This document shows, piece after piece, positions 2,176-30,200 of a stretch of 64,000 bases of DNA (positions are counted from its first letter, which is position 1; every line of letters starts with the position of its first letter). Under the pieces are notes generated by a model. That model had not been told where the DNA came from. It did no database searches and saw nothing but the letters and a program-made list of their open reading frames with translations. The position numbers and the translations under genes are program-made. This DNA is from a virus (taxonomy: Duplodnaviria > Caudoviricetes). The stretch covers positions 1 through 64,000 of the IMG/VR virus record IMGVR_UViG_3300020399_000003; one strand, given 5' to 3'.

Positions 2176-3918
2176 ATGACTACTAGTATTGATCAGTACA
2201 CTATAGAAACTACATGGTCTACAAGAATTACCGATGATATAGTTCTGGAAGCTATTCAAGGGGATGTACCTCAGGATATGGAAACTAATATCATGAATAC
2301 AATTACTCATTTAAATAATAATAAATGGGTAGATGACAAAGAGATTTATATTAAATTAATGTCTTTAATTCTTATAGATCATAACAGCCGACCTATTCAA
2401 GCTATTGCTACTCAGATAGGACATCTAGCAGGAATTAGCAATCCTACTGATGCTTTCGAATGGGGAATAGTACTTCTTAAAGATTGTAGAGATGTTAATC
2501 TTTATAATTTTCAAAAGAAGGATCATGAATGGAGGGTATACCCTAATTTCACATTAGATAGTAATACTAAGGACAAAATAGCTAAGCTACAGTTCTTACC
2601 TCCTATGAAGAAACAGCCTAAAGATTGGAGAGATAATTATAATGGTGGATGGCTTTGGGAGAATAAGCATTTAGTTCTTGGTAATAAGTTTACCAAGCAC
2701 GAGGAACCACTAGCTTATGATGTTATTAATAAGCTTCAAAGTATTCCTTGGGAAATAGATGCTGATACTTATCTATTTGAAAAGCAGACTAATACTGCTA
2801 TGGATAAGAAACAATTCTTAAGAGTTATAGATCAGTATTTAGGACAACATTTCTATTTTGTATGGAGATATGATTCCAGGGGTAGAAGTTATTCTTCTGG
2901 CTATGATCTTAATCTTCAGACTAATGAATATGGTAAAGCTTTATTATCTCTTCATAAGAAAGAGGTTATCACTCAATTACCAAATCTTTACATTGCTATA
3001 GCTAATCATGCTGGCAAAGATAAGCTTACATGGCAAGAACGTATTGATTGGGTTAGTACTCAAAATCCAGATACTATTGAGTGGGATGAACCTATTCTAG
3101 GTAAGAAAGCTATAAGAGCTCTTAAAGCTACTGCAGAAGGTAAACCTACTGGATATGTAATGTCAGTAGATGCTACAAGTTCTGGGATTCAAATCATGGC
3201 TGTGCTATCAGGAGATAAGCAAACAGCTAAGCTGGTTAATTGCATAGATCCTAATCAACGTCATGATCTATACAATGATGTAGCAGCTATGATGTCTTTA
3301 CAGCTAAAGAACCCAGTTCCTAGATCTATAGTAAAGCAATGCACAATGACGCATTACTATAATTCTAAGGCTACTCCCAGGGGCCTGCTATCTGAAGAAG
3401 AACTGGAAGTATTCTATCAGGTTATTGAAGGTCTACTACCGGGAGCAGAAGAAGTAATGGCTACCATTAATGGATGCTGGAATAATAATGCTGATGCGCA
3501 TTCATGGGTTATGCCTGATGGTCATAGAGTATATGTTCCTGTAGTAGAAGGTATTAATGGTGTATACTCAGATGAAGAATTCGGAGATATTCCTTTGAGG
3601 TGGTACCGTCAAACTAAATCTAATAATTATAGGTCTCTTTGCCCTAATGTTATTCATTCAATTGATGGCTATGTGGCTAGGGAAATGATTAGACGTTCTG
3701 AATTTCAACTAAGTCATATCCATGATTGTTTTGTATTTAACCCTAATCATTTACAGAAAGTATGTCAAACATACAGAGAGATTATGGCTGAATTAGCTAG
3801 CAGTGATATATTCGTTGATATCTTACGCCAAATTACGGGTAAATCGACTTTTACAATCACTAAAGCTAGTACAGATTTAGATAAGGATATTCTTCAAAGT
3901 AATTATATGTTATCTTGA
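2176..3918 (+). CDS. N4-like RNAPII (T7 superfamily), RNAP1+RNAP2 fused in one 580-aa chain
   Basis: YDSRGRSY (DxxGR), IANHAGKDK..W.ERIDW, motif A VDATSSG, motif B RSIVKQCTMTHYY, motif C SHIHDCF in one frame. Confidence 0.9.
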   Translation: MTTSIDQYTIETTWSTRITDDIVLEAIQGDVPQDMETNIMNTITHLNNNKWVDDKEIYIKLMSLILIDHNSRPIQAIATQIGHLAGISNPTDAFEWGIVLLKDCRDVNLYNFQKKDHEWRVYPNFTLDSNTKDKIAKLQFLPPMKKQPKDWRDNYNGGWLWENKHLVLGNKFTKHEEPLAYDVINKLQSIPWEIDADTYLFEKQTNTAMDKKQFLRVIDQYLGQHFYFVWRYDSRGRSYSSGYDLNLQTNEYGKALLSLHKKEVITQLPNLYIAIANHAGKDKLTWQERIDWVSTQNPDTIEWDEPILGKKAIRALKATAEGKPTGYVMSVDATSSGIQIMAVLSGDKQTAKLVNCIDPNQRHDLYNDVAAMMSLQLKNPVPRSIVKQCTMTHYYNSKATPRGLLSEEELEVFYQVIEGLLPGAEEVMATINGCWNNNADAHSWVMPDGHRVYVPVVEGINGVYSDEEFGDIPLRWYRQTKSNNYRSLCPNVIHSIDGYVAREMIRRSEFQLSHIHDCFVFNPNHLQKVCQTYREIMAELASSDIFVDILRQITGKSTFTITKASTDLDKDILQSNYMLS

Positions 3919-3980: not shown

Positions 3981-4012
3981 TGGTCTCCCCGAAAGGGGGG
4001 GCCATTTTTTTT
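3981..4012 (+). terminator. Rho-independent terminator
   Basis: TGGTCTCCCC-GAAA-GGGGGGGCCA followed by T8. Confidence 0.9.
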
Positions 4013-4074
4013 ATCCATACTTAAGATTTAGATGTTCACATAACTTAATCATATTTATCACTGGAGGTCGTGCA

Positions 4075-4290
4075 ATGTCTCGTTTTGTAGTTAAAAAGTG
4101 TGAGATGAGAGCCTGTCAGTGGTGGAGATTAGGAGACAATTGTATTAAAAATGGCTCTTCTATAAGCCATGCTGTGCAATATTCTTCCGATCTTCATAGT
4201 GCTGAACTATGCCAAGTGAGAGAACAAATCAACAAATATAGAATGAAACAAATGTTAGAAGGAAAGGAGATTGCTCATGAAGATAGGTAG
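4075..4290 (+). CDS. hypothetical Cys-containing protein
   Basis: ORF track; GGAGGT RBS. Confidence 0.6.
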   Translation: MSRFVVKKCEMRACQWWRLGDNCIKNGSSISHAVQYSSDLHSAELCQVREQINKYRMKQMLEGKEIAHEDR

Positions 4291-4924
4291 TTGGGAACTA
4301 GAAAGTATCCGTAATAAGATCCTAAGGGATCTATATTCACCAGAGGAAGAAAACCATAGTAAACGAAAAACTGAGATAGTACGTCAAAATAGAGAATATT
4401 ATATAGAACCATTTAACTCTATTTTACAAACTTTACCTGAAGAATTAATTGATGAACATAAAGATTTTGTAACTGAAATTAACTATCTCAGTCCTATGAT
4501 AGAAAAATTAGAAGGAGATACACCAGTTCATTTTACCATTAATGAGAGTTGGACTTACATGAATGACATAGCTGTAATTAATCCTGTTCAGAAACGAGCA
4601 ACAGGTTATTCACAAAATCAACCAGCACCACAACCATTAGATCCTCGATTAAAAGATATTACAGAGCAATTATGTGAAGAAATAATTACGCTGCGTAGTA
4701 AGCGTAGAGAAACACATGATTATTTAGTTGCTACAACTCATAAATATACAGGATCATTACAATTACGGAAAGAATGGCCTGCTTCATTCCATAAATATTT
4801 ACCACCTGAACCAGTAAAAGTCGCTAAGTCTGCGAAGGAAACTAAGAAAGTGGTGGTAGATGATATGGCATTGCCAGATCATATTCACGAAACAATGACT
4901 AATAATCTTTTAGAGGGAGATTAA
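4277..4924 (+). CDS. hypothetical protein, possibly Nmad5-like
   Basis: AAGGAG before ATG 4277; C-terminal QLRKEWPASFHKYLP resembles the L.e.WPe...ylP signature recalled for Nmad5. Confidence 0.55.
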   Translation: MKIGSWELESIRNKILRDLYSPEEENHSKRKTEIVRQNREYYIEPFNSILQTLPEELIDEHKDFVTEINYLSPMIEKLEGDTPVHFTINESWTYMNDIAVINPVQKRATGYSQNQPAPQPLDPRLKDITEQLCEEIITLRSKRRETHDYLVATTHKYTGSLQLRKEWPASFHKYLPPEPVKVAKSAKETKKVVVDDMALPDHIHETMTNNLLEGD

Positions 4925-4925
4925 G

Positions 4926-5951
4926 ATGTTTGAGGTTAACGCAGTTGAACTAGAACAAGCTCTTATTGAAGATCTAAAAGCAGGTCTTACTCCGATGGTA
5001 GCGTCCAGCCCAGGGATGGGTAAATCAGATATTATTCGTAGTATAGCTAAAACATTTAACCTTAAAGTAATTGATTTCAGAGTATCTCAGTGTGAGCCAG
5101 TAGATATGCAAGGTTATCCTGGCATAACTGATGGACGTATGACATTTCATATTCCTGAGTACTTCCCTATAGAGACAGACAGCATACCCGAAGGGTATGA
5201 TGGCTGGCTCCTATTTTTAGATGAATTTAATTCAGGTAATAAACAAACAGAAGCTGCAGCATATAAGCTTATTTTAGATCGAGAAGTATATAAACATAAA
5301 CTACATCCTAGATGTCTTATTGCCGCAGCGGGTAATTTAACTACTGATAGAGCTATTGTAAATACTCAAAGTACAGCAACTACATCCCGATTAACTCACT
5401 ATAGAATGCGAGTAGATCACAAAGTATGGATCGAGTGGGCTAATGCAAATGAGATTGATCATAGAATTATCTCACTTATTAAATTTAAGCCAGAGATTCT
5501 GCATAAATTTGATCCTCAAACTAATGAACTTACTTTCCCAAGTCCACGTACATGGGAATTCGCATCTAAAGTTATTAAGAATAAATCAGAAATAAATCAT
5601 ATTACTACTGTCAGGTTAGCTGGAACAGTAGGTGAAGGAGCAGCTGTAGAACTAGCTGCCTATTCTGAAATCTATCAGAATTTACCTACAATTGAGCAGA
5701 TACTTGCCAATCCTAAATCAGGATGGAAAGTACCTAAAGAACCTAGTGAATTATTCGCAGTCACAACAATGCTAGCCCACAACAGTACTAAAGATAATAT
5801 TGAAAAACTCATGATTGCTAACGGGCGGTTACCTACCGAGATGCAAGTAATCACGTTAAAAGATATTTATAAAAGAAATCCTAAATTAAAAAAACATCCA
5901 ATAATTAAAGAGTGGACTAGTAAGAACGCTCACATATTATTTGGTAATTAA
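4926..5951 (+). CDS. MoxR-like AAA+ ATPase (N4 gp24-like)
   Basis: Walker A SSPGMGKS, Walker B LFLDEF, AAGN, FPSPRTWE. Confidence 0.9.
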   Translation: MFEVNAVELEQALIEDLKAGLTPMVASSPGMGKSDIIRSIAKTFNLKVIDFRVSQCEPVDMQGYPGITDGRMTFHIPEYFPIETDSIPEGYDGWLLFLDEFNSGNKQTEAAAYKLILDREVYKHKLHPRCLIAAAGNLTTDRAIVNTQSTATTSRLTHYRMRVDHKVWIEWANANEIDHRIISLIKFKPEILHKFDPQTNELTFPSPRTWEFASKVIKNKSEINHITTVRLAGTVGEGAAVELAAYSEIYQNLPTIEQILANPKSGWKVPKEPSELFAVTTMLAHNSTKDNIEKLMIANGRLPTEMQVITLKDIYKRNPKLKKHPIIKEWTSKNAHILFGN

Positions 5952-5958
5952 CCATCCA

Positions 5959-6239
5959 GGCGGTTCGAGATGGAATGTCTCATCTTAAACTAGAATGGAA
6001 TTCAACCCAGCTCAATTCAATAGAGTGGGGTTAAATGAAACGCAATAACATATCTCAAGAGTAGTACCTGAGTACGGTTTAGTTCGATTTAACCAGATTG
6101 AATTCAATCCAGCACAGTAAGATACAATGGAACCAAATATCTCATCGCAATGATTAATAAACCTAGCAGCATATAATAAAATTAGGCTCGGTATTATTAA
6201 ATTTTATGAAATATGATTCAATAATTCAAAATTTAACAA
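5959..6239 (+). repeat. phased RRY-NN pentamer tracts upstream of RAMP gene (candidate guide ncRNAs)
   Basis: 5994-6048 11/11 units RRY; 6071-6140 14/14; 6160-6239 12/16; short remnant 5959-5988; shared 15-nt end motif at 5974, 6044, 6136. Confidence 0.9.
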
Positions 6240-6250
6240 GGAGATTTAAA

Positions 6251-6841
6251 ATGTATGTATCAGCAAAGTGTCATCTAAGAAGTAACAGTAAGTATAGTCA
6301 ATCACGCCCATATCAAGTAGAAAAGAAGCCTCGAGAAACACCGGGAGATTATGAAAAACGAACATGGAGAGAACGTCTCCATCTTAGTTATGAAAACCCT
6401 GAAAAAATTCAAATTCCAGGAATGCAATTTAAGAATTGTATAGCAGAATGTGCTAAGTACATGTCTAGACAAATTCCAGGTAAAGGTAAAACAACCTATA
6501 CCAAGCATTTCGAAGCAGGAATTATGCCTATGGGATCTATGGAACTAGATATCTACGCTAAAGATGTAATTGAAGAAGTAGTATTTGTTCCTTCAAGTGG
6601 AAAACGCGGAGATGGTAATCGTGTTTATAAATCTTTTCCAGTAATTAATAGCTGGGAAGGAGTAATAGAATTCTCAATATTTGATCATACGATTACAAAA
6701 GAAGTATTTATTGAACATCTAATTGAAGCCGGACAGTTTATCGGTATCGGTAGATGGCGACCTCGTAATAATGGAATGTACGGACGTTTTCTTGTTGAAA
6801 AAGTTGATTGGCAAGAAAATGAATCGGCAATCGCAGCATAG
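6251..6841 (+). CDS. solitary Cas7-like RAMP-fold protein
   Basis: AAGGAG before ATG 6251; N-terminal beta strand, IPGMQFKNCIAECAK helix, C-terminal G-rich loop AGQFIGIGRWRPRNNGMYGRFLV. Confidence 0.85.
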   Translation: MYVSAKCHLRSNSKYSQSRPYQVEKKPRETPGDYEKRTWRERLHLSYENPEKIQIPGMQFKNCIAECAKYMSRQIPGKGKTTYTKHFEAGIMPMGSMELDIYAKDVIEEVVFVPSSGKRGDGNRVYKSFPVINSWEGVIEFSIFDHTITKEVFIEHLIEAGQFIGIGRWRPRNNGMYGRFLVEKVDWQENESAIAA

Positions 6842-7132
6842 TTACATGAAATTTAGTCGAGTGCAATGAAATTTAATAAAATATAACGAAACATCTTGTC
6901 GCAATTATTACCCCCTAAAAAATTTAACTTTGGTCGAGTTCGATAAAATTCCATGCAATTTAATTGAATCGAGTATCATATAATATAATTCAACGCAATG
7001 AAATATCACATCTCAAGGATTAAAATATAGAGCACCCAGCAGGACCCAGCATAGTAAGATGTCTTGAAACGGCCTGAAATAGGTCATAATGTAATAGGTC
7101 ATCATGCAACCTAATGCAACCCCATGTAATCA
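6835..7132 (+). repeat. phased RRY-NN pentamer tracts between RAMP and partner gene
   Basis: 6835-6894 11/12; 6932-7006 13/15; 7038-7132 13/19; end motif at 6890 and 7002. Confidence 0.9.
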
Positions 7133-7146
7133 CACAAGGATTTTAT

Positions 7147-7725
7147 ATGAGTCATCCAGGAAACGATAACATCATAGATAATGAAAGGGATAAAATGGAA
7201 ACTCCAGATAACGAACCAACAGTTGATGAGAAAAGAAAACCTTTTTGTCGAGCAATCGAAACTACAGGTTTAATAAAAGAATTAAAAAAATACCGGGAAG
7301 GTGAAGAAATTCCTTACGATGCTTTAACTAAAGCAGCAATGGGAAATTGTTCTCCAGGCAAAATTAAGTATCCTTTTCTTAAATCTGCCAGAGATATTTT
7401 ATTTAAAGAAGACGGAGTCGAATTCAGAGCCATTCCTAATATTGGATTAATGCGAATGTCTGATAAAGATAAACTCAGTAAAGCTAAAAGAACTATACCG
7501 TCTTACAATAGAAAAGCTAAAAAAGATATGCACAGATTGCAAAATACAGATTTTGATAATCTAAATCCTGATGAGCAATTATGTCATAGTGTTCATTTAT
7601 CAATTCTTAACGTTCTTAGATGTTCAACATCTGGAGATAGAGTTAATAAAATTACCAAAGTAATTGCGAATAATGACCAGCCTGAAAGACTTGCATTGGA
7701 AGAAACACTTAAAACATTTCTTTGA
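7147..7725 (+). CDS. RAMP-associated partner protein, unknown function
   Basis: AAGGA before ATG 7147 (alternative ATG 7195 after AAAGGGA); basic; flanked by pentamer tracts on both sides. Confidence 0.75.
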   Translation: MSHPGNDNIIDNERDKMETPDNEPTVDEKRKPFCRAIETTGLIKELKKYREGEEIPYDALTKAAMGNCSPGKIKYPFLKSARDILFKEDGVEFRAIPNIGLMRMSDKDKLSKAKRTIPSYNRKAKKDMHRLQNTDFDNLNPDEQLCHSVHLSILNVLRCSTSGDRVNKITKVIANNDQPERLALEETLKTFL

Positions 7726-7778
7726 TCCGACAGGACCCAATCCGTTGGAATTCGATGCAATAAGACAAGACTTAACAT
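7724..7778 (+). repeat. phased RRY-NN pentamer tract downstream of partner gene
   Basis: gatcc gacag gaccc aatcc gttgg aattc gatgc aataa gacaa gactt aacat: 10/11 RRY. Confidence 0.85.
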
Positions 7779-7788
7779 CGAGGTACTT

Positions 7789-8004
7789 ATGAAAACAGTT
7801 CCAATAGAAGAGTTAGGTATTAATGACGGTACATTTAATGCTCTTAAGAATGCAGGCATTACAACCGCTAATGAACTACACCAAATGAATGATAATAAAC
7901 TATTAGCTATTCATGAAATAGGACCTGTTAGGCGTAAGATTATTAAAAACGCTATAGCAACTATACGTGGAGACCTAATAGATCTACCACCTATTGACTG
8001 GTAA
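7789..8004 (+). CDS. stand-alone RNA polymerase alpha C-terminal-domain-like (HhH) protein
   Basis: IEELGINDGTFNALKNAGITTANELHQMNDNKLLAIHEIGPVRRKII matches the alphaCTD pattern ieeL.ls.R..NcLk.agI.t..dL...e.eLl.i.nlG.ks..eI. Confidence 0.8.
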   Translation: MKTVPIEELGINDGTFNALKNAGITTANELHQMNDNKLLAIHEIGPVRRKIIKNAIATIRGDLIDLPPIDW

Positions 8005-8009
8005 AACTA

Positions 8010-9134
8010 ATGTCTAATGACTTAGAAGGACAATTACTTAAAGCTAAGATAGAGATCATGACTAAGTCAGCATTCATATCTACTATAGCTCTTAGTCTTA
8101 AACATGTAATTACTCCTGATGTCAAAACAGCCGATGTTAATGGCGTAGTTATTAGATATAACCCCGAATTTATTGGAGCACAATCAACTGCTCAATTAGC
8201 TGGGCTTATGGCCCATGAATGTTGGCATGTAGCCTTCCAGCATTTATCACGTAGAAACGATAGAGATCCTATTCTTTGGAATGTAGCAGGAGATTACGTT
8301 ATTAATCATATGCTAATGAAAGCAGGATTCCAGATACCTACTGGAGGTCTAATCGATGCTCAATACGATGAAACATGGTCTACTGATCAAGTATATGACC
8401 ATTTAAAGAAAGACCATCATACCCCAAATCCTGAAACATTAATGTTAGATCTAAATGAAGATGGAGCACCAGAAGATGCAGGTATTGGTTCACCACTAAT
8501 AAGTATAATAGTAAGAGCCAAACAAGCAGCTGAAATGTCTGGTGAAGCAAAAAGGGGTCTTGTTCCAGATGAGATTCTAAGACGAATAGATGAGCTATTA
8601 AATCCTAAACTACCCTGGCAAGTTATATTGCATAAATTTCTAGATCGCAGAGTTAAAGAAGAATATTCTTGGGCTAGACGTAATAGACGATATCACGCAG
8701 ATACATATCTACCTAGTTTACATAGTTATGGGTTAGGTCACCTAACCTTTGCAATCGACACTAGTGGCAGTATTGAAGATAAAGCACTTCAAGAAATGCT
8801 TAGTGAAATACAAGGTGTTCAACAAATATTTACCCCAGAAAGAATGACAATCATTGATTGTGATGCAGTAATTCATAAAATTCATGATGTAGATCAATCT
8901 ACAAATATTTTAAATTTAGAATTTGCTGGAGGGGGAGGAACTAGCTTCTGGCCTGTTCTAGACTATGTAGAAGAACACCCCACACAAGCATTAATTTATT
9001 TTACTGATTTAGAGGGGGAGACTGATCTTGATCCAGTAAACTACCCAGTTATTTGGGTATGTACATCTAATCATGAACCCTCACCAATCGGAGAGACTGT
9101 TTATGTCAACCCAGAGCACTATAATTCTGATTAA
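8010..9134 (+). CDS. metallopeptidase-like + vWA domain protein (N4 gp25-like, DUF2201 type)
   Basis: HECWH (HExxH), NVAGDYVIN, IDTSGS MIDAS, GGGGT. Confidence 0.9.
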   Translation: MSNDLEGQLLKAKIEIMTKSAFISTIALSLKHVITPDVKTADVNGVVIRYNPEFIGAQSTAQLAGLMAHECWHVAFQHLSRRNDRDPILWNVAGDYVINHMLMKAGFQIPTGGLIDAQYDETWSTDQVYDHLKKDHHTPNPETLMLDLNEDGAPEDAGIGSPLISIIVRAKQAAEMSGEAKRGLVPDEILRRIDELLNPKLPWQVILHKFLDRRVKEEYSWARRNRRYHADTYLPSLHSYGLGHLTFAIDTSGSIEDKALQEMLSEIQGVQQIFTPERMTIIDCDAVIHKIHDVDQSTNILNLEFAGGGGTSFWPVLDYVEEHPTQALIYFTDLEGETDLDPVNYPVIWVCTSNHEPSPIGETVYVNPEHYNSD

Positions 9135-11517
9135 AGAAGATGCCTGTATCACAACAGAAATTCAAAACTATTATCTAAACAAACTTCGTAATGAAGGAAT
9201 CTCACCAGATGAAGTACTCGTACTACCTCTTCTGTATAACACCCCTACCAAAATTATAGCTAAAACAGCTAAAGCTTATCTCGACAAGTTAATTCATAAG
9301 ATCCCGACAAGTGTATCTAAATTAATTATTGCAGATAGCAGTTATTTTAAATTTATTACTAAAGTAAATAAAGTGTCTGATGCTTATTGTCAGATATTAC
9401 GTGGAAAATACACAGGATATGAAAAATACCAATGTGTATATGTTCCTAATTATAAATCTTTATTTAAACAACCAGAGAACAAAAGATTAATTGATCTCGG
9501 TATTGAAACACTAATGGGTGTTTATACTGGAGATGGTTTAAATATATCAGCTGAATATGGTTTTAAACACGGATCTGATAGAGAGATACTCGATTCATTA
9601 TATAAATATCCGGTCTTATCAGCAGACATAGAAACTAGAGGACTAGATCTAGATTCAGAAATAGTATCCATTGCGTTTGCATGGTCCACGTTTGATGGCG
9701 TAGCTATCGATTTATCTATTAATGGTGATTACTATTTAAAGAAATTCTTTGAATCGTACAAAGGCCAGTTAATATTTCATAATGGCTTATTTGATGCCAA
9801 GTTACTTATCAAAAGTCTATGGATGGAACATCCTACAGATAGAGCAGGTATGCTCGAAGGTCTTAATTATTTTAAGAACTTTGATGACACTATGATCATG
9901 GCTTATTTAGCTAAGAATGCCACTACCGGTACATCACTTGGTTTAAAAAATCTAGCTCTGGAATTTGCAGGGTATTACGCTCTTGAACATATTGAAGATT
10001 TAAGTAGATATAGTAAGAAAGAACTTCTTAAATATAATCTTATAGATGCATTATCAACTTTTTATTGTTGGGAACAATATCATGACCAATTAGATTCTCG
10101 TCCATATAAAGAAATATTTCAGCCTAGTTTCGTAACATTATTAAAAATGATGTTAGTAGGCTTACCAATGGATTCTAATCGTGTAGACGAAGTTCACACA
10201 ATTTTAAAATCTAAAGAAAAAGTTCTACTAGAACAAATACAAGAAAATAACCACGTAAAAAATTTCACTAAAATATTACAAGAAACAGCATGTACAACTG
10301 CTAATTCTAAACTTAAAAAATTAGTTAAAACAATAGAACAATTTTACGATGTTAAGTTCAATCCAAGTAGTCATCAACAGTTAGCTCTTTTATTATTTGG
10401 TCATTTACAATTACCTATTTTAGATAAAACTAAATCAGGAGCACCAGCTACTAGTGCAGATGTATTAAAAGATTTAGCTAACCATACACAAGACGTAGAA
10501 ATAATAGATCTACTTAAGTTTGTTACAGACTTAGCAGACGTTACGAAGATTAATGGAACATTTATTAAAGCTTTCCTAAAAGAGAAGAATTTCCTACATG
10601 GAAATTTGAAACTTGGTGGTACTCAATCTGGAAGGTTGGCAAGTAACTCACCTAACTTGACCAATCTTCCCGCTCATGGGCCTATGGGCAAACTAATCAA
10701 GAGCTGTATTGTAGCTCCTGATGGTTGGCTATTTGCAGGAGCAGACTTTGCTGCTCTTGAAGAACGTATTGGAGCAATACTAAGTAACGATCCTAATAGA
10801 ATTAAAGTATATACCGATGGTATGGATGGGCATTCAATGAGAGCTTACAAATACTTCTCAGATCAAATGCCAGATATCGATCCTAACGATGTAGATAGCA
10901 TTAATTCAATCCAAATTAAATATCCTGAGCTGAGACGGAAGTCTAAAGGTCCAACCTTCGCCCTACAATATATGGGCACAGCTCATACCTTACATAAGCG
11001 TACTGGCTTTCCTAAAGACCAAGCTAAACAAATCTATGATGCTTTTCATGAATTATATAAAGTTTCTGGTGATTTTAATAATCAGAATAGAAAATTTATG
11101 GAAGAGCATGGTTATGTTGAATGTGCATTTGGTCTTAAACTGCAAACACCAATTATAACTAAATGTATAATGGGTAATTCAATTACTCCTTATGAAGCAG
11201 ATAAAGAAGCGCGTAGTGCTAATAATGCTGTTACTCAATCTTGGGGCATGCTACTCAATAGAGCTATGAATGCCACTAATAAACGCATTGAAGAAGCAGG
11301 ATATGGAACAGATATTCTTCCCTGTAACATGATTCATGATGCAGGTTACTTTATTGTAAGAGATACACCTGAACATATTAAATTTTTAAATGATGTTCTT
11401 ATTGAAGAAATGGAATGGAATGATGATGATGCAATTAGATCAACTGATGTCCCAATGTGTGCTCAATTAGAAATTGGCAAATCATGGGATAAATTAACCC
11501 CAATTGGAGAAATATGA
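9103..11517 (+). CDS. family A DNA polymerase with 3'-5' exonuclease (N4-like)
   Basis: ExoI DIET, ExoII HNGLFD, ExoIII YNLIDA; pol motifs ADFAALEER, RRKSKGPTFALQY, IHDA; GGAGAG before ATG 9103. Confidence 0.95.
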   Translation: MSTQSTIILIKEDACITTEIQNYYLNKLRNEGISPDEVLVLPLLYNTPTKIIAKTAKAYLDKLIHKIPTSVSKLIIADSSYFKFITKVNKVSDAYCQILRGKYTGYEKYQCVYVPNYKSLFKQPENKRLIDLGIETLMGVYTGDGLNISAEYGFKHGSDREILDSLYKYPVLSADIETRGLDLDSEIVSIAFAWSTFDGVAIDLSINGDYYLKKFFESYKGQLIFHNGLFDAKLLIKSLWMEHPTDRAGMLEGLNYFKNFDDTMIMAYLAKNATTGTSLGLKNLALEFAGYYALEHIEDLSRYSKKELLKYNLIDALSTFYCWEQYHDQLDSRPYKEIFQPSFVTLLKMMLVGLPMDSNRVDEVHTILKSKEKVLLEQIQENNHVKNFTKILQETACTTANSKLKKLVKTIEQFYDVKFNPSSHQQLALLLFGHLQLPILDKTKSGAPATSADVLKDLANHTQDVEIIDLLKFVTDLADVTKINGTFIKAFLKEKNFLHGNLKLGGTQSGRLASNSPNLTNLPAHGPMGKLIKSCIVAPDGWLFAGADFAALEERIGAILSNDPNRIKVYTDGMDGHSMRAYKYFSDQMPDIDPNDVDSINSIQIKYPELRRKSKGPTFALQYMGTAHTLHKRTGFPKDQAKQIYDAFHELYKVSGDFNNQNRKFMEEHGYVECAFGLKLQTPIITKCIMGNSITPYEADKEARSANNAVTQSWGMLLNRAMNATNKRIEEAGYGTDILPCNMIHDAGYFIVRDTPEHIKFLNDVLIEEMEWNDDDAIRSTDVPMCAQLEIGKSWDKLTPIGEI

Positions 11518-27200: not shown

Positions 27201-30200
27201 AGCTTAGTGCTCTCTACAAGATTTCTTGCTTTAGTTAATTTTTGATAAGCATGAACTGCAGCTAATACATTACTGTTATTAACAAGATCATTAAAATAAG
27301 TTTTTGAGTCACCATAAGTTTGTTTATCAATATCACTTCCAAAATTCTGAGCAACAGCTAACTCAAACTTCCATAGATTTTTTTCGTTGTAAGTTTTTGG
27401 TTCCCAGGATTTTAATAGGAAACGATCAACTTTACTTCCTTGAGGATTGATCTTGCCTTCTTGCATAATACGATGATGATTCTGCAGGCTATAAGTAAAA
27501 TAAAATTTATCTAATTCATTACGATCATTAGCCTCTACAAGTCTTTTTAAGCTAGCTAATTTATCTCTATTAGAAGCTGCTTTAGACTCCATATCATATT
27601 CATGCCATCTACCTTTTTTAATAGGTTCACCGTTTTTATCTATTTTACGTTTACCATCTTTATCTAATACATATACATATTCACCATTAGCATCTTTTTC
27701 ATATAATTCTTCAATACCCATTACTTGTTCTAGAACATCACTATGATCTTCAAATAGATCACTAACTATATCCATTGGTTGAGATTTACTCCATTCAACC
27801 TTATGTAGTTTTTTCATGAGTCTTTGAACTTCTTGAGGTACTTCTCCAAAAGTACCGGGTACATCAGTTCGAATATCTCGTGGATTTTGTAGCGGACCAG
27901 CATTAGATTGAATATCTAAATTAAGTGTTGTAGTTAGATCCTTTACTGCAGCTAATCCCTCTTCTGAAGGTGGGCGCTTCTCATTAACCTTAAGTTGCCT
28001 ATATCCAAATCCATCTTTATCAGCTTTAGACCCCTTAACATTATTGTTATAGGCTCTGCCTGGTACAGTAGCTTCATCGAATGCCCATTTATGTACATCT
28101 TTAATAAAGTAAGCTTCACTATCATTGCCTTGAGCTGTTTCAATAGCTGCCATTCCAAGAGCAGGAATTAGATGTTCATAGTATATATCTATTCCTTCTT
28201 GTGTTAATTCACCAGAAGCTTTAGTTGGGGATAAGTGTAGCATCTGGGATATGTCATATCCTATCTGTCTAGCTACATCGTTATAGCTGTATCCTAATTT
28301 ACCTAGTTCAGTCTTCTCATTTTGATTTAATTTTTGAGTATTATTATAGAGAAAAGTTTCCATTTTATAGTCACTATCTCCAAATACATTATTATCTGCA
28401 GTTCTTTGTCTCCATGTCATTGCACCAACCATCATTGAGAATATAACTTGATTAGGTAATATTCCTTGATGATTATCAGGATTTTTCGTATCTTCACGAT
28501 ACAGTAATGACAAGGGTTGTCTAATAGCGTAATTAGTTGTATCAATTAAATTTGCAAGTGGGACTGTAAGAGCTTTACCATCATTTGCATTAGGAGCTTG
28601 AATTACTGCTTCTTTTCCTTTAATAGCTAAAACTTTAAATTGGGTACCCGCATATTTAGCTTCATTTTCAGTAGAGCTACTATCTACTAATACAACTGTA
28701 TTTCCTTTTACAATTGCATGATAAAGAGTTTCTCTAAAACGTTTTGCAAATTTGCTGTACCTAGCAACTAAAACTTTAGCTGATTTAGGATCAAGTCCTA
28801 GATTTGTTAATGCTTTAGTTAGTGCTTTAGTAGATTCAAAATCAGCATCAGAAAGAGTATGAATACCTCCTTCTTTAACTCGTTTACCTATATTAACTAA
28901 ATCAGTAAATTTTTTCCCAACTAGGCCGAGAGCTTTATCTAAATTATCTTTGCTTACTGCTTTAAGAGCTGTTTGATATATTAGAGTAGCAGACTCTACA
29001 AAATTCTTTCCTGCGAAGGAGAATTCGATTTGCTCTCCGGGCTTACCTTCTTCATCTTTAGTAGTTTCTCGCACATCAGGAGTAGATTCATCAGGAGATT
29101 TAGCAGATTCTTCAGGTGCTTTATCTTCTGTCCGAGTGTCATCTCCTGCTGGTTCATCAGTTTTGGATTCTGCGATACGTGATTCAAGACCTGCAATTGT
29201 TGTTTTGAGTTCGTCAATTTTGTCTCGAAGAATTTTTTTATTCTCATCACCTTCCCCCAGTTCATTAAATGCATCAACAGTAGTCTTTAATTCTGTTTTA
29301 GCTTCTTTTAATTGATTTTCTAAAGTAGAAGCTTCGTCTACTGTTTCATCAATTTTAATATCTTCTCGTTGTTCATCTGTTACTTCTTCAACAACGCGAG
29401 GCATAGCCCCTCTTAGCTTAACTAGTGTGTCATATACGTTTTGCTTAGCTTTAATCTTAATTTCTTGATTAGCAGCTGTTTGGGCCATAGAAGTCTTCTT
29501 ATAACCCTGCACTGTTCCCATAATTAACTTGCCATATTTAACTTCTCCTTCTAAATTATTAATAAGACCATCAGACTTATTAATAGTAAAGTTTGCAAAT
29601 TTATGGGTTTTATCACTGATAAGAGTAACGAATTGTCCATTAGTTTTACGAGCTTCAAATGATGATCCTTCTTTATATTCAACTCCATTAGCTTTAGCTT
29701 GAGCTTTTGCATCTGCTTCAGTTAATGGCATAGAAACCGTTTTGTAGTTCATTTTGCGTACACCTCTCGGTGACTTTTCATCAATTGAACCTACAACAAC
29801 AGCACCCATACCAGAGGCTAAGTTAGGGATCATACCTTTAGCTCGTTTAAACTCAGCCAATTTACTACTTAAATTAGTCGCATGAGTAATCATTTTCGAA
29901 GTAAGTGCTCTAATATGTCTGTCACGAAGTACAGGATCAGTTAGATTCTTATACGAATTAATAATTTCTTCATGGTATTTAGCTAAACCTTTCCACTTTT
30001 TAGTATCACCTTCTAAAATTTCTTCATGAACATCAGCCATTGTTTTTTCGGCTTGTTCTTCTTTTTCAGCTCTTTTAGCTTTTTCTATTTTTCTATCAAC
30101 TTGATTTTGCCAATAGAGTGTATCTTCTGCAGGAGCATCTGGATCTGCTTTTGATTGCGCTAATTTTTTCTTTGTTTCATCAATGGATAATTTATCATGC

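What the first reader, a model, noticed from the sequence alone, without database searches (positions are those of the whole stretch)
5994..7778. At least seven separate pentamer tracts, each with its own NN string
Parsed by hand: A 5994-6048 (11/11 RRY; NN = gg tc cc tc tc ag gg ta ga gc aa); B 6071-6140 (14/14; ac tt tc tt ca tg tc cc ac aa ac gg ca at); B2 6160-6239 (12/16); C 6835-6894 (11/12; at ta ga tt cg gc ga tt aa at ga at); D 6932-7006 (13/15; cg tc aa tc gc tt tg cg at at at tc gc ga at); E 7038-7132 (13/19); F 7724-7778 (10/11; cc ag cc cc gg tc gc aa aa tt at). Position 3 is a pyrimidine in every unit of every tract, even where RR fails. A random triplet is RRY about 1 time in 8, so runs of 11-14 are not chance. 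The tracts share no NN sequence, unlike a microsatellite, which fits a guide repertoire. Period 5 also argues against a coding origin.
Basis: partly seen in the sequence, partly recalled or inferred. Interest (0 to 1): 0.9.

Follow-up and report, generated by a model that had tools for sequence, protein, structure and literature searches.

The report
Phage VIPR guide-RNA arrays, purine-purine-pyrimidine type
The five-base tracts are real and are almost certainly the guide RNAs of a VIPR system, a CRISPR-like phage weapon first described in 2026, here in a marine N4-like phage and built on an A-rich purine-purine-pyrimidine scaffold instead of the published GGY.

Summary
All seven tracts are confirmed at the stated coordinates. 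There are 98 five-base units: position 3 is a pyrimidine in 98/98, position 1 a purine in 87 and position 2 a purine in 92. All 16 NN dinucleotides occur. The tracts are on the + strand only and lie in only three intergenic gaps of the 64 kb; shuffles give none.

The tracts flank a 196-aa gene (6251-6841). Its model (pLDDT 90.6) has the Cas7/Csm3 RAMP fold. Its profile matches the reference Vipr protein of Escherichia phage SUSP1 (hhalign 97%, E 1.3e-10), including the glycine loop. Among 20 related N4-like phage contigs, tracts occur only in the four that carry this gene. In 117 distant homologue loci (GC 32-70%), 88 have same-strand tracts within 1.2 kb.

This matches VIPR (bioRxiv 10.64898/2026.04.26.720920 and .720927): one Vipr protomer per 5 nt holds the triplet and exposes NN, which pairs with DNA skipping every third base. 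In guides retained between relatives, NN is better conserved (82-92%) than the scaffold (52-79%), so NN is not drifting neutrally.

I found no natural target in anything I could search. This scan has already met VIPR systems on other DNA. Verdict: a new member of a known kind, with a relaxed RRY (mostly AAT) scaffold.

The parts
5994..6063 (+). vrRNA A: 11 RRY-NN units (5994-6048), then the tail CATATCTCAAGAGTA
   Evidence: The same guide is in relatives L001/L002: 11/11 NN are identical and the one change is in a scaffold base (AAC to AAT).
6071..6159 (+). vrRNA B: 14 units (6071-6140), then the tail CTCATCGCAATGATT
   Evidence: It is the longest unbroken run (14/14). It is retained in L001 at 6340 with 96% NN identity.
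6160..6246 (+). vrRNA B2: 16 units, 12 of them RRY and all with a pyrimidine at position 3. Its CAAGGAG end is also the ribosome-binding site of the vipr gene.
   Evidence: A contig from another marine sample (X4) carries deletions of 5, 5 and 3+1+1 bases inside this tract, which keeps the 5-base register (one contig only).
6251..6841 (+). vipr gene: 196-aa minimal RAMP (Cas7-like) protein with the glycine loop GIGRWRPRNNGMYGRF
   Evidence: The AF2 model has pLDDT 90.6. The top Foldseek PDB hits are Csm3 (6xn3_F, E 1.4e-8), type VII Cas7 and Cmr4. hhalign against SUSP1 Vipr gives 97% probability, E 1.3e-10. The family has 2135 hits. There is no Pfam hit, and phrog_4652 has no assigned function.
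6835..6909 (+). vrRNA C: 12 units (6835-6894), starting inside the last codons of vipr, then the tail CTTGTCGCAATTATT
   Evidence: L001 has a cassette with the same tail (CTTGTCGCAATAATT) but different NN. That points to guide replacement on a conserved frame.
6910..6926 (+). Linker motif ACCCCCTAAAAAATTTA between cassettes: a candidate vrRNA promoter or a further part of the tail
   Evidence: It is the only copy in the 64 kb at up to 2 mismatches. It recurs after many tails in relatives L007, L013, L029, L031 and L032. Its function was not tested.
6932..7021 (+). vrRNA D: 15 units (6932-7006), then the tail CACATCTCAAGGATT
   Evidence: It is retained in L001 at 7659 with 14 units of identical NN.
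7038..7142 (+). vrRNA E: 19 units, 13 of them RRY and all with a pyrimidine at position 3. Its end CACAAGGATT overlaps the ribosome-binding site of the next gene.
   Evidence: It is the most degenerate tract and has no counterpart in relatives, so it is the least certain member.
7147..7725 (+). Candidate vap (accessory) gene: 192 aa, with an N-terminal winged-helix-like domain followed by a helical hairpin
   Evidence: The family is narrow (35 hits). The model has pLDDT 70. Weak fold matches are to OmpR-type and PurR winged helices (Foldseek E about 0.15; VIA Z 6.8-7.4). It is present in every related locus that has tracts. It shows no similarity to SUSP1 vap1.
7724..7788 (+). vrRNA F: 11 units (7724-7778), then CGAGGTACTT, which holds the ribosome-binding site of the next gene
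   Evidence: It is identical in L001. Its NN core (cc cc gg yc gc aa ar ty at) is kept in L031, L032 and L034 while the scaffold triplets differ. It is the only tract that folds better than shuffles (z -3.9), so it may also act as a structured element.
7789..8004 (+). 71-aa protein resembling the C-terminal domain of the RNA polymerase alpha subunit. It is next to the module but not a core part of it.
   Evidence: Pfam RNA_pol_A_CTD, E 9.7e-8. It is present in the window and in L001/L002 but not in L007 or L013, which also carry the module.

Best explanation
The region 5994-7788 is a VIPR (Viral Interference Programmable Repeat) locus inserted between the MoxR-type ATPase and VWA genes of a 74-kb marine N4-like phage.

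Inferred from the published mechanism: the + strand tracts are transcribed as vrRNAs of about 60-100 nt. The 196-aa Vipr protein (6251-6841) polymerises along each RNA, one protomer per five bases. It holds the purine-purine-pyrimidine triplet in protein pockets and exposes the two variable bases. The exposed NN string pairs with a DNA target in which every third base is skipped (NNxNNx...). The resulting R-loop filament blocks transcription, probably in a competing phage, satellite or prophage. The short conserved motif after each tract (CAYATC[TG]CAAGGATT or a variant) takes the place of the published 3' tail. The 192-aa gene at 7147-7725 is the accessory (vap) gene, probably DNA-binding.

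Shown here:
- the anatomy of the tracts;
- the RAMP fold of the protein and its homology to SUSP1 Vipr;
- the co-occurrence of gene and tracts;
- class-level constraint on the scaffold, with sequence-level constraint on NN in retained guides;
- the absence of self-targets.

Not shown here: transcription and processing of the RNAs, filament formation, the one-base skip rule in this clade, and the identity of the targets.
For: Protein.
- The AF2 model has pLDDT 90.6.
- The best solved matches are Cas7-family backbone subunits: Csm3 6xn3_F at E 1.4e-8, type VII Cas7, and Cmr4.
- The family profile matches SUSP1 Vipr (KT454805 28474-29061, minus strand) at hhalign probability 97%, E 1.3e-10. The match covers 80 C-terminal residues including the glycine loop.

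Anatomy.
- There are 7 tracts of 11-19 units, on the strand of the genes only, each closed by a conserved tail.
- The published description is the same: 9-16 units plus an invariant tail, with arrays upstream and downstream of vipr and vap.
- My scan of the SUSP1 locus finds the same layout with GGT units.

Co-occurrence.
- Of 20 related contigs, only the four that carry the two genes have tracts (L001, L002, L007, L013).
- 88 of 117 distant homologue loci have tracts within 1.2 kb on the same strand. That is 267 tracts, against 12 elsewhere on that strand and 33 on the other.

Selection.
- In guides retained between relatives, NN identity is 82-92%. Scaffold identity is 52-79%, and third-codon identity in vipr is 66-71%. 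The scaffold still stays in class RRY in 96-100% of positions.

Other points.
- No self-target stands above shuffled guides at any skip, as published.
- The tracts do not fold better than shuffles, as expected for protein-coated RNA.
- There is no Rfam match.
Against: - No natural target was found, and the one-base skip gave no excess over skips of 0, 2 or 3 or over shuffled guides in any searchable data.
- The scaffold is not GGY: 50 of 98 units (AAT plus AAC) contain no G at all.
- The residues aligned with the two guanine-reading residues of SUSP1 Vipr differ: D177 aligns with R168 and R138 with F129. The published contacts therefore cannot be simply transferred.
- The tail is short and has no predicted hairpin or pseudoknot, unlike the SUSP1 tail.
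- The accessory gene has no detectable similarity to vap1, and its winged-helix assignment is weak.
- Expression is not demonstrated. One contig from an RNA library covers the tail and the start of the accessory gene in a relative, but such libraries can contain DNA.
Confidence: 0.9

Rival explanations
1. The tracts are decoy or sponge vrRNAs rather than guides against DNA. On this reading the phage makes many Vipr-binding RNAs mainly to load, redirect or titrate the Vipr protein of competing elements, as published for satellite-encoded solo vrRNAs. The NN strings would then point at harmless or host decoy sites.
For: Solo vrRNAs that redirect another element's Vipr are documented (abstract of 10.64898/2026.10.15.759431). 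No target was found for any guide. Cassette number changes quickly between near-identical phages: 7 in the window against 15 in L001.
Against: The locus carries its own intact and highly conserved vipr gene and an accessory gene, so it is not a solo array. NN is conserved in retained guides, which implies specific targets either way.
Confidence: 0.06
2. The tracts are cis-regulatory protein-binding sites in the 5' leaders of the three downstream genes. A multimeric RNA-binding protein would sit on the repeated triplets and control translation or termination, as TRAP does on (G/U)AG-NN repeats, with no trans target.
For: The last tract of each gap ends in a CAAGGA/CGAGG motif that overlaps the ribosome-binding site of the next gene. 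Period 5 and roughly 11 repeats resemble the TRAP site (my own knowledge, not tested).
Against: Most cassettes are internal and have no gene after them. L001 has 8 cassettes in a row before vipr. In homologue loci, tracts also lie downstream of the gene (131 of 267). NN is conserved more than the triplet in retained tracts, and a binding site that reads triplets does not predict that. The protein is a RAMP homologous to a proven guide-binding protein. No TRAP-family domain is present.
Confidence: 0.03
3. The periodicity is a DNA-level or mutational feature with no RNA role: a degenerate microsatellite, a curvature element or a replication element.
For: The region is AT-rich and intergenic. Tracts E and B2 are degenerate.
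Against: The signal is strictly strand-specific, and only the purine/pyrimidine class repeats. All 16 NN are used. It is linked to one protein family across GC contents of 32-70% and across many phyla. Shuffles never reproduce it.
Confidence: 0.01

Closest known systems
Type II VIPR of Escherichia phage SUSP1 (KT454805; vipr 28474-29061, vap1 28031-28471, four vrRNAs), as described in bioRxiv 10.64898/2026.04.26.720920 and 10.64898/2026.04.26.720927
   Same: Both have a Vipr of 195-196 aa that is a single-RRM RAMP with a GxGxWRPR...GRF glycine loop (hhalign 97%). Both have a two-gene core flanked on both sides by arrays of 5-base units, each with a fixed triplet and a free NN, 9-16+ units per RNA, each ended by a conserved tail. 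Both are phage-borne, and neither self-targets.
   Different: The scaffold here is RRY, mostly AAT, AAC, AGT and GAT, rather than GGT/GGC. The glycine-loop residue aligned with D177 is Arg, and the thumb residue aligned with R138 is Phe. The tail is a short CAAGGATT-type motif with no predicted pseudoknot. The accessory gene is unrelated to vap1. The host phage is an N4-like marine podovirus rather than an E. coli Ounavirinae myovirus. Targets are unknown.
Non-canonical VIPR arrays found by entropy periodicity (GAC/NN, CAC/NN, WGT/NN, TGH/NN; bioRxiv 10.64898/2026.10.21.760802)
   Same: These are period-5 arrays whose fixed triplet is not GGY, next to Vipr-like folds. Relatives of this window's Vipr use GAC only (L063, L064, L110) or AGT (L031-L033).
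   Different: The window's triplet is degenerate at all three positions (R, R, Y) with AAT as the commonest form. The accessible text of that paper does not name this pattern; I could not see its figure S10.
Cas7-family backbone subunits of class 1 CRISPR effectors (Csm3, Cmr4, type VII Cas7)
   Same: They share the RRM core, glycine loop and thumb, and they polymerise along a guide RNA with periodic base flipping. They are the best solved structural matches.
   Different: The CRISPR subunits have a 6-base period and bind spacers without sequence preference. They work with other Cas subunits, and their guides come from repeat-spacer arrays filled by Cas1-Cas2. Here the period is 5, the triplet is read by class, and the neighbouring genes I scanned include no other cas family.
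TRAP (trp RNA-binding attenuation protein) and its (G/U)AG-NN repeat sites
   Same: A multimeric protein reads a triplet repeated about every five bases on single-stranded RNA (my own knowledge).
   Different: The protein fold is unrelated, and TRAP has no variable information-carrying positions and no trans target. This was my first working idea, and I dropped it after the fold search.

Membership tests
VIPR | A Vipr protein: a minimal single-RRM RAMP with a glycine loop and thumb, homologous to the described Vipr proteins | tested here: met
   The model has pLDDT 90.6. Cas7/Csm3 are the top solved matches. hhalign against SUSP1 Vipr gives 97% probability, E 1.3e-10, but only over the C-terminal 80 residues. 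A BFVD hit is annotated as a RAMP superfamily protein.
VIPR | vrRNA tracts: tandem 5-base units with a conserved triplet and hypervariable NN, about 9-16 units, beside the vipr gene | tested here: met
   There are 7 tracts of 11-19 units. Positions 4 and 5 have entropy 1.94 and 1.97 bits, against 0.86-1.31 for positions 1-3. The triplet is RRY rather than the canonical GGY. Published variants allow other consensus triplets.
VIPR | An invariant 3' tail after each repeat tract | tested here: met
   The motif CAYATC[TG]CA[AT][GT]GATT, or a shortened CRCAAGGATT, follows the tracts in the window and its relatives. GC-rich homologue loci have CGCAACGCAAGGCAAGG. Unlike the SUSP1 tail, no stable structure is predicted.
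VIPR | An adjacent accessory (vap) gene predicted to interact with DNA | tested here: inconclusive
   A 192-aa gene always accompanies vipr in the N4-like relatives. Its winged-helix-like domain is supported only weakly (Foldseek E about 0.15; VIA Z 6.8-7.4). It shows no similarity to vap1. I had no sequences for vap2-6.
VIPR | vrRNAs are expressed as discrete small RNAs and co-purify with Vipr | not testable with these tools
   Only assembled contigs were available. One contig from an RNA library covers a relative's tract end, tail and accessory-gene start. That cannot show RNA ends or strand.
VIPR | Natural DNA targets that match at least 80% of NN under the one-base skip rule | tested here: inconclusive
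   No enrichment over shuffled guides or other skips was seen in the phage's own genome, in 426 kb of related phages or in 844 kb of VIPR-bearing loci. Exact 8- or 10-unit seeds of guides A, B, C, D and F in IMG/VR, and of A and B in JGI metagenomes, gave only chance-level hits. A mismatch-tolerant search of large marine collections was not possible.
VIPR | No self-targeting of the source genome | tested here: met
   The best matches in the 74-kb genome, with the locus masked, equal those of shuffled guides at skips 0-3. There is no match at up to 3 mismatches for guide B.
CRISPR-Cas class 1 | A repeat-spacer CRISPR array with a multi-subunit effector and adaptation genes | tested here: not met
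   No direct-repeat array lies in or beside the locus (covering 4000-10000). The neighbouring genes are an ATPase, a VWA protein, a DNA polymerase and an RNA polymerase, with no cas family among them. The period is 5, not 6. I did not scan the rest of the window for CRISPR arrays.
TRAP-type attenuation | A TrpBP-family undecameric protein binding (G/U)AG repeats in a leader RNA | tested here: not met
   No Pfam TrpBP hit appears in the module's proteins. The protein has a RAMP fold. The triplet is RRY, and most tracts are not leaders.

The most novel reading that the evidence does not exclude
This Vipr clade may read its scaffold only by chemical class (purine, purine, pyrimidine) rather than as GGY. 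The two guanine-specific contacts of SUSP1 Vipr are replaced here: D177 aligns with Arg168 and R138 with Phe129. The stacking Trp and the pyrimidine-pocket Arg are kept. That would let the scaffold drift with genome composition, from GGC or GAC in GC-rich hosts to AGT and AAT in 32-35% GC marine phages, while NN keeps the information.

A second possibility is that the CAAGGA tail of the last cassette doubles as the ribosome-binding site of vipr, the accessory gene and the alpha-CTD-like gene. Filament loading on the primary transcript would then throttle their translation.
Probability: 0.3. Interest if true: 0.55.

Novelty: new member of a known kind. Interest (0 to 1): 0.4.

Why it matters
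VIPR is a very recent discovery, and its characterised examples come from enterobacterial and Pseudomonas phages with GGY scaffolds. This locus adds three things.

- **Range.** VIPR sits in a globally distributed marine N4-like phage; the stretch was found in runs from 13 studies.
- **Scaffold.** One Vipr clade tolerates scaffolds from GGC to AAT. That bears on how the protein recognises the scaffold and on how freely synthetic vrRNAs could be designed.
- **Guide turnover.** Near-identical phages differ by whole cassettes (7 against 15), and a few guides are kept across relatives whose Vipr is only 63-80% identical to the window's. Those kept guides mark the targets most worth finding.

It also gives a natural test case for whether the one-base skip rule holds outside type II systems.

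Tried and rejected
**TRAP-like ring protein.** This was my first idea, prompted by period 5 and 11 repeats. I dropped it after the fold search showed a RAMP.

**Cultured relatives.** tblastn of the Vipr against 50,697 phage records gave no hit. Relatives had to come from IMG/VR and metagenomes.

**Target searches, all negative or at chance level:**
- Own genome at skips 0-3 against 50 shuffles, and guide B at up to 3 mismatches.
- 57 guides from the N4-like clade against five related phage genomes plus fragments, 426 kb.
- 228 guides of at least 10 units, called from the 117 homologue loci, against 844 kb of those loci. Skip 1 gave 26 guides at 80% or more, against 11, 12 and 21 for skips 0, 2 and 3 and 14 for shuffles. 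This is a weak excess that I do not trust.
- Guides against vipr genes only: 1 hit against 1.5 expected. The hit was L041's guide on the QIPGKGK motif of vipr at 18/22.
- Exact 10-unit seeds of guides B and D in IMG/VR: none.
- 8-unit seeds of B, A, F and C: 3, 13, 6 and 14 hits, none extending beyond chance. The C hits lie in unrelated reading frames.
- 10-unit seeds in JGI metagenomes: B none. A gave one hit at 20/22 on a 1.2-kb, 36% GC contig (L195), in a tRNA-like element beside tRNA-Ile. By my rough estimate, one such hit is about what chance would give in a collection of that size.
- Guide A at up to 3 mismatches: 4 matches against 5 control matches in 401 genomes of one bacterial class, and 0 against 2 in 167 genomes of another phylum.

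**tRNA idea for guide A.** Six IMG/VR seed hits share a tRNA-like D-arm sequence. ARAGORN calls no tRNA there, and the acceptor-side units do not match.

**Walker-A idea for guide F.** The conserved NN core spells PPG(S/P)AK-like codons. The phage's own ATPase has SSPGMGKS, and the best sites in relatives are PPEPVK in the upstream gene at 77% or less.

**Other checks.** Rfam gave no match in 5900-7900. The RNA-library contig of run X20 cannot show transcription.
Full report
**Observation.** I read 5400-8400 and parsed the three intergenic gaps 5952-6250, 6842-7146 and 7726-7788 in all five registers.

- Across the 98 units, position 3 is a pyrimidine in all 98. Position 1 is a purine in 87 and position 2 in 92.
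- Positions 4 and 5 are close to random (1.94 and 1.97 bits) and use all 16 dinucleotides.
- The commonest triplets are AAT (37), AAC (13), AGT (10) and GAT (8).
- Unbroken period-5 RRY runs of 7 or more occur three times on the + strand, all inside the finding, and never in 20 shuffles.
- Windows with at least 8 of 10 RRY units occur only in these three gaps and only on the + strand.

**Setting.** The window is the first 64 kb of a 73,993-base virus record rated complete. It is an N4-like phage. It has a 4506-aa virion RNA polymerase reading frame, an N4-type RNA polymerase II, a MoxR-type ATPase (4926-5951), a VWA/DUF2201 protein (8010-9134) and a family A DNA polymerase. The closest cultured phages share under 50% identity in the ATPase. 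The stretch, or part of it, occurs in marine runs from 13 studies.

**The tracts belong to a two-gene module.**
- Twenty IMG/VR relatives were fetched through the ATPase. Period-5 tracts occur in L001, L002, L007 and L013 and in none of the others.
- Those four are exactly the loci that carry homologues of the 196-aa gene (6251-6841) and the 192-aa gene (7147-7725), inserted between the ATPase and VWA genes.
- L001 and L002 have a 99% identical ATPase, yet they carry 8+6+1 cassettes where the window has 3+3+1. Cassettes are therefore gained and lost quickly.

**Cassette anatomy.** Each tract of 9-17 units is followed by a conserved end, CAYATC[TG]CA[AT][GT]GATT or a shorter CRCAAGGATT. A T-run and the motif TACCCCTAAAAAATTTA often follow before the next tract. 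The last cassette of each gap ends in CAAGGA/CGAGG, which is also the ribosome-binding site of the next gene.

**The protein.**
- The 196-aa family is large (2135 hits) and strongly conserved.
- Its AlphaFold model (pLDDT 90.6) is most like Cas7-family backbone subunits: Csm3 6xn3_F at E 1.4e-8, type VII Cas7, and Cmr4.
- The 192-aa protein has a narrow family. Its N-terminal domain looks like a winged helix and is followed by a helical hairpin, with weak support.

**The link between protein and tracts holds far beyond this phage.** Contigs encoding homologues of 55-60% identity carry same-strand RRY-NN tracts right beside the gene. These include a 374-kb bacterial contig, a 210-kb contig and a 74-kb contig, with GC of 51-67%. 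Their triplets are GGC or GAC and their tails are CGCAACGCAAGGCAAGG.

Across 117 loci from IMG/VR and GTDB genomes of many phyla, 88 have tracts within 1.2 kb on the gene's strand. That is 267 tracts, against 12 elsewhere on that strand and 33 on the other strand.

**Identification.** Earlier notes of this scan named VIPR and gave preprint identifiers. I read the papers myself.
- The discovery paper describes a phage-borne minimal RAMP (Vipr) and an accessory gene (vap). Its vrRNAs have 9-16 GGY-NN units plus an invariant tail. Targeting of double-stranded DNA is specified only by NN, with one skipped base per unit. There are seven types with variable arrays and related repeat consensus patterns.
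- The structural paper shows one protomer per repeat. G1 is read by H17 and D177, G2 by R138 and W178, and Y3 sits in a pocket that excludes purines. R-loop growth runs from the 3' tail towards the 5' end.
- A third paper describes satellite competition and solo vrRNAs.
- A fourth reports 21 clusters with non-canonical triplets such as GAC, CAC, WGT and TGH.

**Direct comparison with the reference system.**
- I fetched the SUSP1 genome. The locus at 27.6-29.3 kb has a 195-aa gene, a 146-aa gene and four GGT-NN tracts with long tails.
- The window's family profile matches the SUSP1 Vipr at 97% probability, E 1.3e-10, over the C-terminal 80 residues.
- In that alignment, SUSP1 D177-W178-R179 corresponds to R168-W169-R170 here, and SUSP1 R138 corresponds to F129.
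- So the stacking Trp and the pyrimidine-pocket Arg are kept, while both guanine-specific contacts are changed. This fits a scaffold that accepts A or G. It is an inference from an alignment, not a structural result.
- The accessory genes are unrelated.

**The scaffold varies by lineage.** Within this Vipr clade some loci use GGC, some only GAC, and some AGT. The window's subclade uses mainly AAT. G content at positions 1 and 2 and C content at position 3 rise with locus GC (r = 0.70, 0.42 and 0.73).

**NN is not drifting neutrally.**
- Most guides differ completely between relatives, but a few are retained.
- In those, NN identity is 82-92% and scaffold identity is 52-79%. Third-codon identity in the adjacent vipr gene is 66-71%. 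The scaffold still stays in class RRY at 96-100%.
- Tract F is an example. Its NN core is kept in L031, L032 and L034 although nearly every triplet has changed within its class.
- One caveat: the pairs were picked by NN similarity, which inflates that figure somewhat. The lower scaffold identity within the same homologous tracts is the informative contrast.
- A contig from another sample has 5-base deletions inside tract B2, which preserve the register (one contig only).

**Targets.**
- Nothing exceeded chance.
- The best single match is guide A at 20/22 on a short 36% GC marine contig, in a tRNA-like element next to tRNA-Ile. By my rough estimate, one exact 20-base seed hit is about what chance would give in a collection of that size.
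- The absence of self-targets agrees with the published systems.

**Structure of the RNAs.** Tracts A-E with their tails fold no better than shuffles (z from -0.4 to +1.6). Tract F does fold better (z -3.9). There is no Rfam match.

The system is a known kind, and this scan has already met it on other genomes. This is a new member with a relaxed, A-rich RRY scaffold, a short tail and a different accessory gene, in a widespread marine N4-like phage.

Noticed in passing
L024:9201-10640 (74-kb JGI contig that carries a homologous VIPR locus): About 1.3 kb downstream of the VIPR cassettes there is a long reading frame that looks like TnpB/Cas12. It is followed by at least four copies of a 36-base direct repeat (GATGGAAGTGACCCGAATTTGGGTGGTGCGCACAAC) with spacers, which is a CRISPR array. 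So a VIPR system and a compact CRISPR system sit side by side on one element.
   Followed up: no
L021:11915-14813 (374-kb bacterial contig); L142 and L149: A TROVE (Ro60-like) gene with HD and RlaP genes lies 3 kb from a VIPR locus in L021. Separately, the IMG/VR seed hits of guide A fall in tRNA-like elements in contigs that have weak YrlA (Y RNA-like) matches a few hundred bases away. This may be coincidence.
   Followed up: partly
window 6237-6246, 7133-7142, 7779-7783: The tail motif of the last cassette in each gap (CAAGGAG, CAAGGAT, CGAGG) doubles as the Shine-Dalgarno sequence of vipr, the accessory gene and the alpha-CTD-like gene. Internal cassettes carry the same CAAGGATT with no gene after it. 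Vipr loading could therefore be coupled to translation.
   Followed up: partly
window 6910-6926, and after many tails in L007, L013, L029, L031 and L032: The motif (T)ACCCCTAAAAAATTTA recurs between cassettes but nowhere else in the 64-kb window. It may be a dedicated promoter for single vrRNAs or a further part of the tail.
   Followed up: partly
window 7724-7788: Tract F is the only tract with a significantly stable predicted fold: two hairpins, z -3.9, 0 of 200 shuffles as good. It is also the guide whose NN core is kept across the deepest divergence. It may have a second role as a structured element or terminator after the accessory gene.
   Followed up: partly
window 6203-6223, in run X4: A contig from a 2025 seawater metagenome differs from the window by deletions of 5, 5 and 3+1+1 bases inside tract B2. 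Units are removed while the pentamer register is kept. This rests on one contig at depth 5.65.
   Followed up: no
window 7789-8004: A free-standing 71-aa protein matches the C-terminal domain of the RNA polymerase alpha subunit (Pfam E 9.7e-8). It follows the module in the window and in L001/L002 but is absent from L007 and L013.
   Followed up: partly
window 2176-3918: A single 580-aa reading frame matches N4-type and T7-type RNA polymerase families (Pfam RNA_pol E 2.6e-17; phrog_2051 E 9.6e-94). In phage N4 this polymerase is made of two separate proteins.
   Followed up: no
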